Origin: the human T2T-CHM13v2.0 reference genome, Homo sapiens
DNA length: 64,000 bases
NCBI RefSeq assembly: GCF_009914755.1
Contig: NC_060947.1
Strand: one strand, 5' to 3'
Under the pieces are notes generated by a model. The model saw only the letters and a program-made list of their open reading frames with translations, ran no database searches and had not been told where the DNA came from. A program made the position numbers and the translations under genes. Numbering within the stretch: position 1 is the first letter of the stretch; each line of letters starts with the position of its first letter. Shown here piece after piece: positions 19,031 through 50,641 of the stretch.

Positions 19031-22000
19031 TTTTTTTTTTTTTTATTATACTTTAAGTTTTAGGATACATGTGCACAACGTGCAGGTTTGTTACATATGT
19101 ATGTATACATGTGCCATGTTGGTGTGCTGCACCCATTAACTCGTCATTTAGCATTAGGTATATCTCCTAATGCTATCCCTGTCCCCTCCCCCCACCCACA
19201 ACAGTCCCTGGTGTGTGATGTTCCCCTTCCTGTGTCCATGTGTTCTCATTATTCAATTCCCACCTATGAATGAGAACATGCAGTGTTTGTTATTTTGTCC
19301 TTGCGATAGTTTGCTGAGAATGATGGTTTCCAGCTTCATCCATGTTCCTACAAAGGACATGAACTCATCATTTTTTATGGCTGCATAGTATTCCATAGTG
19401 TATATGTGCCACATTTTCTTAATCCAGTCTATCATTGTTGGACATTTGGGTTGTTCCAAGTCTTTGCTATTGTGAATAGCACCACAATAAACATACATGT
19501 GCATGTGTCTGTATAGCAGCATGATTTATAATCCTTTGGGTATATACCCAGTAATGGGATGGCTGGGTCAAATGGTATTTCTAGTTCTAGATCCCTGAGG
19601 AATAGCCACACTGACTTCCACAATGGTTGAACCAGTTTACCGTCCCACCAACAGTGTAAAAGTGTTCCTATTTCTCCACATCCTCTCCAGCACCTGTTGT
19701 TTCCTGACTTTTTAATGATTGCCATTCTAACTGGTGTGAGATGGTATCTCATTGTGGTTTTGATTTGCATTTCTCTGATGGCCAGTGATGATGAGCATTT
19801 TCTCATGTGTTTTTTGGCTGCATAAATGTCTTCTTTTGAGAAGTGTGTGTTCATATCCTTCACCCACTTTTTGATGGGGTTGTCTGTTTTTTTCTTGTAA
19901 ATTTGCTTGAGTTCATTGTAGATTCTGGATATTAGCCCTTTGTCAGATGAGTAGGTTGCAAAAATTTTCTCCCATTTTGTAGGTTGCCTGTTCACTCTGA
20001 TAGTAGTTTCTTTTGCTGTGCAGAAGCTCTTTAGTTTAATTAGATCCCATTTGTCAATTTTGGCTTTTCTTGCCATTGCTTTTGGTGTTTTAGACATGAA
20101 GTCTTTGCCCATGCCTATGTCCTGAATGGTATTGCCTAGGATTTCTTCCAGAGTTTTTATGATTTTAGGTCTAACATGTAAGTCTTTAATCCAACTTGAA
20201 TTGATTTTTGTATAAGATGTAAGGAAGGGATCCAGTTTCAGCTTTCTACATATGGCTAGCCAGTTCTCCCAGCACCATTTATTAAATAGGGAATCCTTTC
20301 CCCATTGCTTGTTTTTGTTAGGTTTGTCAAAGATCAGAGAGTTGTAGATATGCGGCATTATTTCTGAGGGCTCTGTTCTGTTCCATTGATCTATATCTCT
20401 GTTTTGGTACCAGTACCATGCTGTTTTGGTTACTGTAGCCTTGTAGTATAGTTTGAAGTCAGGTAGCGTGATGCCTCCAGCTTTGTTCTTTTGGCTCAGG
20501 ATTGTCTTGGCAATGCGGGCTCTTTTTTGGTTCCATGTGAACTTTAAAGTAGTTTTTTCCAATTCTGTGAAGAAAGTCATTGGTAGCTTCATAAGGATGG
20601 CATTGAATCTATAAATTACCTTGGGCAGTATGGCCATTTTCATGATATTGATTCTTCCTATGAATGAGCATGGAATGTTCTTCCATTTGTTTGTGTCCTC
20701 TTTTATTTTGTTGAGCAGTGGTCTGTAGTTCTCCTTGAAGAGGTCCTTCACATCCCTTATAAGTTGGATTCCTAGGTATTTTATTCTCTTTGAAGCAATT
20801 GTGAATGGGAGTTCACTCATGATTTGGCTCTCTGTTTGTCTGTTATTGATGTATAAGAATGCTTGTGATTTTTGCACATTGATTTTGTATCCTGACACTT
20901 TACTGAAGTTGCTTATCAGCTTAAGGAGATTTTGGGCTGAGACGATGGGGTTTTCTAGATATAAAATTATGTCATCTGCAAACAGGGACAATTTGACTTC
21001 CTCTTTTCCTCATTGAATGCCTTTTATTTCTTTCTCCTGCTTGATTGCCCTGGCCAGAACTTCCAACCCTATGTTGAATAGGAATGGTGAGAGAGGGCAT
21101 CCCTGTCTTGTGCCAGTTTTCAAAGGGAATGTTTCCAGTTTTTGCCCATTCAGTAAGATATTGGCTGTGGGCTTGTCATAGATAGCTCTTATTATTTTGA
21201 GATAAGTCCCATCAATACCTAATTTATTGAGAGTTTTTAGCATGAAACGTTGTTGAATTTTGTCAAAGGCCTTTTCTGCATCTATTGAGATAATCATGTG
21301 GTTTTTATCTTTGGTTTTGTTTAGATGCTGGATTATGCTTATTGATTTTCATATGTTGAACCAGCCTTGCATCCCAGGGATGAAGCCCACTTGATCATGG
21401 TGGATAAGCTTTTTGATGTGCTGCTGGATTCGGTTTGCCAGTATTTTACTGAGGATTTTTGCATCAATGTTGATCAAGGATATTGGTCTAAAATTCTCAT
21501 TTTTTGTTGTGTCTCTGCCAGGCTTTGGTATCAGGATGATGCTGGCCTCATAAAATGAGTTAGGGAGGATTCCCTCTTTTTCTATTGATTGGAATAGTTT
21601 CAGAAGGAAAGGTACTAGGTCCTCCTTGTACCTCTGGTAGAATTCGGCTGTGAGTCCGTCTGGTCCTGAACTTTTTTTGGTTGGTAAGCTATTAATTATT
21701 GCCTCAATTTCAGCTCCTGTTATTGGTCTATTCAGAGATTCAACTTCTTCCTCGTTTAGTCTTGGGAGAATGTATGTGTCGAATTTCTCCATTTCTTCTA
21801 GATTTTCCAGTTTATTTGTGTAGAGGTGTTTATAGTATTCTCTGATGGTAGTTGCATTTCTGTGGGATTGGTGGTGATATCCCCTTTGTCATTTTTCATT
21901 GTGCCTATTTGATTCTTGTCTCTTTTCTTCTTTATCAGTCTTGATAGCGGTCTAACAATTTTGTTGATCTTTTCAAAAAACCAGCTCCTGGATTCATTGA

Positions 22001-50400: not shown

Positions 50401-50641
50401 TCACTCATAGGTGGGAATTGAACAATGAGAACACTTGGACACAGGAAGGGGAACATCACACAGCGGGGCCTGTCATGGGGTGAGGGGAGGGGGGAGGGAT
50501 AGCATTAGGAGATATACCTAATGTAAATGACGAGTTAATGGGTGCAGCACACCAACATGGCACATGTATACATATGTAACAAACCTGCACATTGTGCACA
50601 GGTACCCTAGAACTTAAAGTATAATAATAATAATTATAAGA
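44485..50641 (+). mobile_element. Full-length L1PA5/6-like element (L1-C), inactive
   Basis: GGGGGCGGTTCCAAGATGGCTGAATAGG 5' end; ORF1/ORF2 fragments including a 368-aa C-terminus; intact TSD GAGCTTTGTAG (44476-44486 / 50642-50652). Confidence 0.95.

What the first reader, a model, noticed from the sequence alone, without database searches (positions are those of the whole stretch)
19031..50641. Three neighbouring L1s share inactivating mutations in a patchwork: ectopic gene conversion
Seen: A and B share a 2-bp ORF2 frameshift (TGGATAGAGTC at ~22781-22792 rc and 35822-35832; C has GGATAAAGAGTC), the ORF1 variant KILKAKNF and the 5'UTR variant CTTATCAAATGGAACACC. A and C share a premature stop KGIQ* (21010-21012 and 48665-48667; B has TTA at 37798) plus [24 protein letters not shown] and CSF. 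B and C share AAGGATACAG (38368, 49231) and GGATGAAAGAC, where A has the usual form. C looks like a different subfamily at its ends and has its own TSD. Established: L1 proteins act mainly in cis, so shared null lesions are unlikely to come from independent retrotransposition. Inference: repeated post-insertion exchange among local L1s, consistent with recurrent pairing or inversion.
Basis: partly seen in the sequence, partly recalled or inferred. Interest (0 to 1): 0.75.

Follow-up and report, generated by a model that had tools for sequence, protein, structure and literature searches.

The report
Old L1 copies swapping sequence locally
Three dead L1 retrotransposons between MAGED4B and MAGED4 have exchanged patches of sequence, and probably an inversion, with each other and with other L1s nearby on Xp11.22; this is a clear example of a known process, although the shared 2-bp frameshift is not evidence for it.

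Summary
The inference of post-insertion exchange among local L1s holds, but partly for other reasons.

Not evidence:
- The A/B 2-bp ORF2 frameshift occurs at 876 dispersed places, against 10,973 for the undeleted form.
- 'MEKF' rests on different nucleotides in A and C.
- Several 'shared' items are subfamily states, CpG decay, or private changes in the third copy.

Evidence:
- A and C share 7 variants within 515 bp, including the TGA stop, that at most 1 of 42 dispersed copies carries. A-C divergence drops to 2.6% there.
- B is 100% identical over 298 bp, carrying 7 rare variants, to a truncated L1 (D) 278 kb away. No other place in the genome matches at 100%.
- The ORF1 'KILKAKNF' 24-mer occurs only in A, B and two L1s 125-186 kb away.
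- A is B's best genome-wide match over the 5' 1.57 kb.
- A's 5' flank and B's 3' flank are the two halves of one older L1 fragment, with matching target-site duplications. This is the signature of an L1-L1 recombination inversion.

Verdict: a real but ordinary kind of event, namely ectopic gene conversion plus a repeat-mediated inversion. It is unusual here in having several partners spread over about 480 kb.

The parts
19031..24985 (-). L1 copy A: full length, with a 178-bp internal deletion relative to B 36519-36696
   Evidence: Self-BLAST and alignment. ORF pieces match Pfam Exo_endo_phos and RVT_1.
33631..39772 (+). L1 copy B: full length
   Evidence: RVT_1 match on 37513-37968.
44487..50641 (+). 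L1 copy C: full length, with a divergent 5' 1.5 kb. Its own TSD GAGCTTTGTAG lies at 44476-44486 and 50642-50652.
21022..24985 (-). A half of the A-B block, equal to B 33631-37788. The two copies share rare variants here, including the KILKAKNF patch (A 23132-23155) and the 2-bp deletion (A 22782-22792).
   Evidence: 14 A-B variants carried by at most 1 of 30-38 dispersed copies between B 35461 and 37726, then only one more, at 39741. 36 A-B shared sites against 4 same-subfamily copies over B 33631-35909. A is B's best genome-wide hit over the 5' 1570 bp.
33631..37788 (+). B half of the A-B block. The 2-bp deletion is at 35822-35832 and the KILKAKNF patch at 35459-35482.
20497..21011 (-). A half of the A-C patch, equal to B 37799-38313. 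It includes the TGA stop at 21010-21012.
   Evidence: 7 A-C variants carried by at most 1 of 42 dispersed copies within 515 bp, against 2 in the rest. The 20-mer with TT..G occurs only in A and C genome-wide.
48666..49176 (+). C half of the A-C patch, with the stop at 48665-48667. The core of reduced A-C divergence is C 48838-49227, equal to A 20446-20835.
   Evidence: A-C events 10 in 389 bp (2.6%) against 6.2-7.3% in the flanking segments. Scan statistic reached by 0 of 1000 permutations.
38295..38592 (+). B tract identical to L1 fragment D (chrX:51715056-51715353, minus strand, 278 kb distal)
   Evidence: 298-bp maximal exact match. 100% identity only to D genome-wide, next best 97%. It carries 6 of the 7 B-D exclusive variants, which span 38281-38517.
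24986..25707 (-). F-left: the 5' half of an older twin-primed L1 fragment F. It has a sense part at 24986-25600 and an inverted part at 25601-25707. It abuts A's 5' end and ends in AATGATGAGTTCAT (24986-24999). F's own TSD AAAAAGTCA lies at 25708-25716.
39773..40139 (+). F-right: the 3' half of the same fragment F. It abuts B's poly(A) and starts AATTATGAGTTCTT (39773-39786), which matches the end of F-left at 12 of 14 bases. F's TSD AAAAAGTCA lies at 40131-40139.
18750..19030 (-). Old L1M-type fragment flanking A's poly(A). It forms no TSD pair with B's 5' flank.
33395..33630 (+). Old L1M-type fragment flanking B's 5' end

Best explanation
A, B and C are three old, dead, full-length L1PA insertions. 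After insertion they recombined with each other and with other L1s of the same Xp11.22 neighbourhood. The proposed mechanism is non-allelic homologous repair between dispersed L1 copies on the same chromosome. It was mostly resolved as gene conversion, in patches of about 0.3 to several kb, and at least once as a crossover between the inverted pair.

Shown:
1. A and C share a patch of about 0.5 kb of otherwise exclusive variants, including the stop codon.
2. B and a truncated L1 (D) 278 kb away share a perfect 298-bp tract full of rare variants.
3. A two-variant ORF1 haplotype exists only in A, B and two L1s (E, G) 125-186 kb away.
4. A and B are each other's closest relatives from the 5' end to about B 37788, and not beyond.
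5. A's 5' flank and B's 3' flank are the two sides of a single original insertion site.

Inferred:
- A and B are the chimeric products of an inversion of the segment between them, caused by an L1-L1 crossover.
- The A-B block is a long conversion linked to that pairing.
- C probably donated to A, and D probably donated to B. B, A's sister copy, keeps the younger subfamily states where A has C's states, and A keeps them where B has D's.
- The B-D event is recent. The A-C and A-B events are old.
- In A and B the 2-bp frameshift was probably carried along within the A-B block, but it is not diagnostic on its own.
For: Rare haplotypes confined to this neighbourhood genome-wide:
- The A/C 20-mer is exact only in A and C. 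12 places are one mismatch away, out of 465 within 2 mismatches.
- The 24-mer with both ORF1 variants is exact at 4 places, all at chrX:51.235-51.433 Mb. 39 other places carry one mismatch.
- The 35-mer with both B/C variants is exact only in B, C and D.
- B 38295-38592 is 100% identical only to itself and D, next best 97% (40 of 3359 candidates scored).

Block pattern of variants carried by at most 1 of 30-42 dispersed copies:
- A-B: 14 sites at B 35461-37726.
- A-C: 7 sites at 37799-38313.
- B-D: 7 sites at 38281-38517.
- Poisson tail for the A-C cluster is 1e-8. The A-B deficit after 38600 has P = 0.006.
- A control group of 6 dispersed old copies gives counts that track subfamily relatedness: up to 9 for pairs of the older subfamily and 5 or fewer otherwise, spread along the element.

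Divergence:
- A-C is 2.6% at 37976-38364, against 6.2-7.3% in the flanking segments.
- B-D shows 0 of 298 in the tract, against 108 events in 2011 bp overall.
- A-B is 6.2% and 3.0% in the first two 500-bp windows, against 5.2-10.6% to four same-subfamily copies.
- A is B's top hit over the 5' 1570 bp: 2462 bits against 2351 for the next (40 of 8361 candidates scored).

Not duplications:
- Homology stops at the L1 ends for A, B and C.
- D, E and G match the window only through L1 sequence.

Inversion:
- F-left and F-right are contiguous in L1 coordinates, with a 14-bp duplication matching at 12 of 14 bases.
- F's own TSD AAAAAGTCA is found beside A's side and beside B's side.
- This is the mismatched-TSD criterion used for retrotransposon recombination-mediated inversions (PMC2603318, passages read).
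Against: - By plain identity, A's 565-bp patch is not closest to C. A chr21 copy scores 917 bits against 906 for C.
- The perfect-run permutation test for A-C is not significant (p = 0.27). The A-C case rests on polarised rare variants and on the divergence dip.
- Individual A-C variants do recur elsewhere. The TGA allele is at 42 places, including A and C. TCA is in 5 older dispersed copies.
- Some A-B variants are in dispersed copies. 40 places are one mismatch from the A-B triple. A chr22 copy has 8 of 21 A-B 5' variants. Part of the A-B block could therefore be a minor source lineage.
- The second junction pair, B's 5' flank and A's 3' flank, shows no TSD. The two flanks overlap in L1M coordinates at low identity, so the simple two-element inversion model is incomplete.
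- Reference panels are small: 4 full-length same-subfamily copies, 29 mostly younger copies and 5 older ones.
- DNA searches scored only 40 candidates each.
- No outgroup species was available, so direction and timing are inferred.
Confidence: 0.8

Rival explanations
1. There was no local exchange. The patchwork reflects subfamily-diagnostic states, mosaic source elements, CpG parallelism, and private mutations in the third copy.
For: - The frameshift allele is dispersed at 876 places.
- Many 'shared' sites are older or younger subfamily states.
- LLNKIKE and several A-C sites are CpG decay or states also present in dispersed copies.
- Scattered rare sharing at 1-5 sites per pair also occurs among dispersed control copies.
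- B-C's 153-bp identical run lies within the control range.
Against: - Multi-variant haplotypes are confined to a stretch of about 480 kb of one chromosome out of 3.1 Gb.
- B and D are perfectly identical over 298 bp across 7 rare variants.
- No fetched dispersed copy carries more than one A-C exclusive variant.
Confidence: 0.06
2. This rival concerns the A-B block only. A and B would be sister insertions from one rare, ORF2-defective source lineage mobilised in trans. Alternatively they would be copies made by a local inverted duplication of a single insertion. In either case the block would not be a conversion.
For: - The A-B shared branch is short, about 0.6% in ORF2, against about 2.4% private change in each copy.
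- Some A-B variants occur in dispersed copies.
- The frameshift lineage shows that defective L1s did spread.
Against: - Two members of a tiny lineage landing 9 kb apart is very unlikely.
- A-B sisterhood stops at about B 37788, with 1 exclusive site observed against about 7 expected after 38600 (P = 0.006).
- There is no flank homology, and both copies have exact L1 termini.
- All 4 same-subfamily copies lack the frameshift.
Confidence: 0.15
3. This rival concerns the swapped flanks only. The continuity of F-left and F-right would be coincidental, and A and B would be ordinary independent insertions with degraded TSDs.
For: - The partner junction pair gives no TSD.
- F's own TSD has only 4 informative bases after an A run.
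Against: - Two unrelated L1 fragments meeting within 14 bp in 6-kb L1 coordinates, with a 12-of-14 duplicated stretch, has odds of roughly half a percent.
- A second, independent TSD match (AAAAAGTCA) also bridges the same two sides.
Confidence: 0.15

Closest known systems
Non-allelic (ectopic, interlocus) gene conversion between dispersed transposable elements. It is documented for Alu and for Y-chromosome LTRs, and reviewed in PMC6598467 (passages read).
   Same: There are patches where one copy matches another copy while neighbouring patches match a third. Divergence is reduced inside the tracts. The effect is enriched for nearby copies and on sex chromosomes.
   Different: The partners here are about 6-kb L1PA elements. 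At least six copies are involved, spread over about 480 kb. One tract joins copies 278 kb apart, far beyond the under-10-kb range emphasised for Alu.
Retrotransposon recombination-mediated inversion (RRMI; Lee et al. 2008, PMC2603318, passages read)
   Same: Two same-family elements in inverted orientation sit at the ends of a segment. Each has TSDs that do not match each other but do match across the pair.
   Different: Only one of the two cross-pairs matches here; the other shows no TSD. No ancestral-state genome was available. The event looks much older than the human-chimpanzee cases.
Recurrent inversions mediated by inverted repeats, with higher rates on the X chromosome (PMC7263195, passages read)
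   Same: Inverted repeats on the X chromosome pair within one chromosome and recombine.
   Different: The repeats here are 6-kb L1s at about 94% identity, not large segmental duplications of high identity. Recurrence is not shown.

Membership tests
LINE-1 (L1PA) full-length element | About 6 kb, with the L1 5' start, an ORF2 containing endonuclease and reverse-transcriptase domains, and an A-rich tail | tested here: met
   A, B and C align end to end with thousands of genomic L1 copies. Pfam Exo_endo_phos and RVT_1 match on ORF pieces. A-rich tails are present.
LINE-1 (L1PA) full-length element | Matching target-site duplications flanking each copy | tested here: inconclusive
   C has an 11-bp TSD. 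A and B have none of their own, but do have one across the pair.
Ectopic gene conversion | A tract of raised identity between two paralogues, bounded by normal divergence, with non-homologous flanks | tested here: met
   B-D shows 0 of 298 in the tract against 5.4% overall. A-C shows 2.6% against 6.2-7.3%. Homology ends at the L1 borders.
Ectopic gene conversion | Shared derived variants exclusive to the pair and clustered in the tract | tested here: met
   against 30-42 dispersed copies, plus the genome-wide pattern counts.
Ectopic gene conversion | Orthologous comparison showing the recipient's pre-conversion state and the direction of transfer | not testable with these tools
   Only the window's own genome is held. 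No other primate assembly is available.
Retrotransposon recombination-mediated inversion | Inverted same-family elements at both breakpoints, with TSDs mismatched within each element and matched across elements | tested here: inconclusive
   The pair formed by A's 5' flank and B's 3' flank matches: a 14-bp stretch at 12 of 14, plus F's own TSD. The pair formed by B's 5' flank and A's 3' flank does not match.
Retrotransposon recombination-mediated inversion | The ancestral orientation seen in an outgroup | not testable with these tools
   No outgroup genome is available.

The most novel reading that the evidence does not exclude
The L1s of a stretch of at least 480 kb of Xp11.22 (chrX:51.235-51.715 Mb in this assembly) would form a regional network of concerted evolution. 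In it, copies dead for 20 Myr or more still exchange sequence over distances up to about 280 kb. The B-D event would be young enough to be specific to the human lineage, or even polymorphic. It shows 0 differences in 298 bp, which implies roughly 5 Myr or less under a recalled rate of about 1e-9 per site per year. The locus would then be a natural reporter of long-range intrachromosomal repair on the hemizygous X.
Probability: 0.35. Interest if true: 0.6.

Novelty: new member of a known kind. Interest (0 to 1): 0.4.

Why it matters
- It is a worked example showing that old L1 copies cannot be treated as independent molecular clocks. Local conversion moves stop codons, subfamily-diagnostic sites and rare variants between neighbours. 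This can mislead subfamily assignment, age estimates and source-element inference.
- It adds an L1-L1 inversion signature inside the MAGED4B-MAGED4 interval, a rearrangement-prone part of the X chromosome.
- It warns that a shared null lesion is not in itself evidence of shared post-insertion history. One specific ORF2 frameshift is present in about 7% of the copies that cover the site.

Tried and rejected
- **First reference panel.** I took the 29 best genome hits to A as an outgroup. They proved to be mostly younger, near-consensus copies, so 'derived versus references' mixed subfamily states with real shared mutations. I corrected this with older carriers of the deletion, four same-subfamily full-length copies, and copies chosen for similarity to the A-C patch.
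- **Ranking by identity.** This is not decisive for an old tract: C is only joint third for A's patch.
- **Direct B-C conversion.** I rejected this as not established. The 153-bp identical run lies within the control range. The B-C exclusive sites are scattered. The AAGGATACAG and CTC pair is also in D and in two dispersed copies.
- **The five dispersed copies with TCA.** They are unrelated older L1s.
- **The copies one mismatch from the A-B triple.** They share few other A-B variants.
- **Simple palindrome or segmental duplication of A and B.** Rejected, because there is no flank homology or mirror order.
- **A compensating indel near the 2-bp deletion.** None was found in 6 dispersed carriers.
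- **Literature searches.** A search for a described L1PA frameshift lineage (L1PA6, L1PA5, frameshift, ORF2) listed 3 papers, none on this point judging by title and abstract. A search for MAGED4 with inversion found nothing specific to this interval in the listing.
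Full report
**What is there.** The window holds three full-length L1 elements.
- A is at 19031-24985 on the minus strand. It has a 178-bp internal deletion.
- B is at 33631-39772 on the plus strand.
- C is at 44487-50641 on the plus strand.

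Homology between them stops at the L1 termini, so they are not parts of a segmental duplication. ORF pieces match Pfam Exo_endo_phos and RVT_1. C has its own 11-bp target-site duplication (TSD). Its first 1.5 kb is much more diverged from A and B (11.6-17.4%) than the rest (4.0-9.0%).

All are present at the stated places, and the 2-bp deletion is a true uncompensated frameshift in A and B. 'MEKF' is encoded by different nucleotides in A and C. With three sequences and no outgroup, most 'two share' sites are simply private changes in the third copy. The three-way alignment has 158 A-private, 154 B-private and 339 C-private sites.

**The frameshift is not local.**
- The 22-mer spanning the deletion occurs at 876 places on all chromosomes within 2 mismatches, and a 24-mer spanning it occurs exactly at 354 places.
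- The undeleted form occurs at 10,973 places.
- I fetched eight carriers. The six that aligned over most of the 3.2 kb (L039, L041-L045) sit on older backgrounds and one younger one, and all have the same uncompensated frameshift.
- 99 of the first 100 listed exact carriers have the older AAATTGG context.
- In contrast, none of the 4 dispersed copies closest to A and B in the 5' region has the deletion, and neither do C, E or G.

**Reference problem and how it was handled.** The 29 best genome hits to A are mostly younger, near-consensus copies. A first count of 'derived shared' sites therefore mixed subfamily states with real shared mutations: 35 for A-B, 21 for A-C and 18 for B-C. To correct this I added three sets of copies:
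- five older carriers of the deletion;
- four full-length copies of A and B's own subfamily;
- four copies chosen for their similarity to the A-C patch.

I then kept only variants present in at most 1 of 30-42 dispersed copies. A control using six dispersed old copies as a mock 'local' group gave counts that track subfamily relatedness: up to 9 for pairs of the older subfamily and 5 or fewer for other pairs, spread along the element. Isolated shared sites are therefore noise.

**The blocks that remain.**
- A-B: 14 exclusive sites from B 35461 to 37726, then only one more, at 39741. About 7 were expected after 38600 (P = 0.006).
- A-C: 7 exclusive sites at B 37799-38313, with 2 elsewhere (Poisson tail 1e-8). 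They are the TTA-to-TGA stop, a C-to-T, the adjacent TC of the 'CSF' change, and the T and G of the 'AILMKLP' change (its other T is carried by more than one dispersed copy), and an A-to-G.
- B-D: 7 exclusive sites at 38281-38517.

**A-C.**
- A-C divergence is 2.6% at B 37976-38364, against 6.8% just upstream and 6.2-7.3% elsewhere.
- A scan statistic picks B 37903-38343, with 29 of 43 polymorphic sites concordant against 125 of 383 overall. No permutation out of 1000 reached this value.
- The 20-mer with TT..G is exact only in A and C. 12 places are one mismatch away.
- Against this, the TGA allele occurs at 42 places, including A and C, and TCA occurs in five unrelated older copies.
- The perfect-run test is not significant (p = 0.27), and by plain identity C is only joint third for A's patch.
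- No fetched dispersed copy has more than one of the exclusive variants.

I read this as an old conversion. B, A's sister copy, carries the younger subfamily states at 37936, 38150 and 38305, where A carries C's older states. C was therefore probably the donor. This is weakened because B's states at 38150 and 38305 lie in or next to the B-D tract.

**B-D.** The 35-mer carrying both B/C variants is exact at only three places: B, C and chrX:51715249. That third place is D, a 5'-truncated L1 on the minus strand, 278 kb distal to B. It is 94.4%, 94.0% and 93.1% identical to B, A and C over about 2 kb.
- B and D have no difference over B 38295-38592, a 298-bp maximal exact match, against 108 events in 2011 bp overall.
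- Genome-wide that stretch is 100% identical only to D, and the next best hit is 97% (40 of 3359 candidates scored).
- Exact runs between the local copies and 38 dispersed copies reach at most 165 bp, or 221 bp for D.
- The tract carries rare variants, so identity there is not just shared consensus sequence.

This is a recent conversion. With a recalled rate of about 1e-9 per site per year, the 95% upper bound is roughly 5 Myr (inference). A keeps the younger states at 38421 and 38457, where B and D have the older ones, so D was probably the donor.

**B-C.** However, AAGGATACAG is also in D and in about 40 dispersed copies. The 153-bp identical run (38518-38670) is within the control range, although it was significant by site permutation. 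The exclusive B-C sites are scattered. Direct B-C exchange is not established.

**A-B and more neighbours.**
- Over B's 5' 1570 bp the best genome-wide hit is A (95%, 2462 bits). The next hit scores 2351 bits (93%) (40 of 8361 candidates scored).
- A-B divergence is 6.2% and 3.0% in the first two 500-bp windows, against 5.2-10.6% to four same-subfamily copies. It is no lower than to them afterwards.
- 36 sites are shared by A and B against those four copies over B 33631-35909, and 12 of them are CpG transitions.
- The 5'UTR 18-mer is exact only in A, B and one chr22 place. That chr22 copy has 8 of 21 A-B 5' variants.
- The 24-mer with both ORF1 'KILKAKNF' variants is exact at four places in 3.1 Gb: A, B, E (chrX:51235368) and G (chrX:51296473). 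39 further places are one mismatch away, nearly all carrying only one of the two variants.
- E and G are full-length L1s with unrelated flanks. They are 90.6-93.1% identical to A and B.

A two-variant haplotype found only in four L1s within 200 kb is hard to explain without local spread.

**Swapped flanks.** A's 5' end abuts an L1 3' fragment, F-left (24986-25600, same strand as A). Beyond it lies a short inverted piece typical of twin priming. B's poly(A) abuts another L1 3' fragment, F-right (from 39773).
- In L1 coordinates the two fragments are contiguous. F-left ends AATGATGAGTTCAT and F-right begins AATTATGAGTTCTT, a 14-bp duplication matching at 12 of 14 bases.
- The outer ends of F carry the same AAAAAGTCA, at 25708-25716 on the minus strand and at 40131-40139 on the plus strand.

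So one older fragment F, with one full-length L1 inserted in it, is now split into two halves in opposite orientation about 14 kb apart. Each half is attached to a complete L1. This is the mismatched-TSD signature of an inversion by recombination between two inverted L1s (criterion read in PMC2603318). The second junction pair does not fit simply. B's 5' flank and A's 3' flank are two different old L1M pieces that overlap in L1M coordinates at low identity and share no TSD. The A-B block ends at about B 37788, 11 bp before the first A-C exclusive site. This is compatible with a long conversion ending at the crossover, but that is speculation.

**Comparison with what is known.**
- Non-allelic gene conversion between transposable elements is established. 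Mosaic patterns of exactly this type are described, and rates are reported as higher within 10 kb and on sex chromosomes (PMC6598467, passages read).
- L1- and Alu-mediated inversions are established (PMC2603318).
- Inversions mediated by inverted repeats recur more often on the X chromosome (PMC7263195, passages read).

The finding is therefore a new member of a known kind. Its less usual aspects are the number of partners (A, B, C, D, E, G), the span of about 480 kb, and a perfect tract between copies 278 kb apart.

**Limits.**
- No outgroup genome was available.
- Reference panels are small.
- DNA searches scored 40 candidates each.
- Subfamily names were not assigned by any tool.
- Supplementary files of the cited papers were not opened.

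Noticed in passing
window 35822-35832 and 22782-22792; dispersed loci L039, L041-L045: The same uncompensated 2-bp ORF2 frameshift (WIES|RPIS...) is present at 876 dispersed genomic places, against 10,973 for the intact form. Nearly all carriers are on the older AAATTGG background. It is absent from the four dispersed copies closest to A and B. It is either a large lineage of ORF2-null L1s that spread despite cis preference, or a strong deletion hotspot.
   Followed up: partly
window 8067-8961: A twin-primed L1 3' fragment: an inverted part at 8067-8577 next to a sense part at 8578-8961. It is 95.7% identical to A 19851-20362 and 95.6% identical to the fragment at 29532-29917.
   Followed up: no
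window 29431-29917 and 24985-25144: Another L1 3' fragment (plus strand) overlaps F-left by 160 bp of L1 coordinates, in inverted orientation, at 93.75% identity. Its relation to the inversion is unexplained.
   Followed up: no
L046 (D) and L063 (G), equal to B 38914-39375: D and G lie about 420 kb apart. They share 4 variants carried by at most 1 of the 31 dispersed copies compared, 3 of them within 64 bp. This may be another conversion patch in the same neighbourhood.
   Followed up: no
window 18750-19030, 31500-31800 and 33395-33630: Three different old L1M-type fragments cover the same part of ORF2. Two of them form the unmatched flanks of A's 3' end and B's 5' end.
   Followed up: partly
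window 22110 (A) against B 36519-36696: A carries a private 178-bp internal deletion in ORF2.
   Followed up: no
genome places listed: The same TTA-to-TGA stop occurs in clusters of nearby L1s elsewhere: chr1 211-212 Mb (4 places), chr7 97-98 Mb (4), chr9 15.5-15.9 Mb (4) and chr10 22 Mb (3). This suggests segmental duplication or local spread at other loci too.
   Followed up: no
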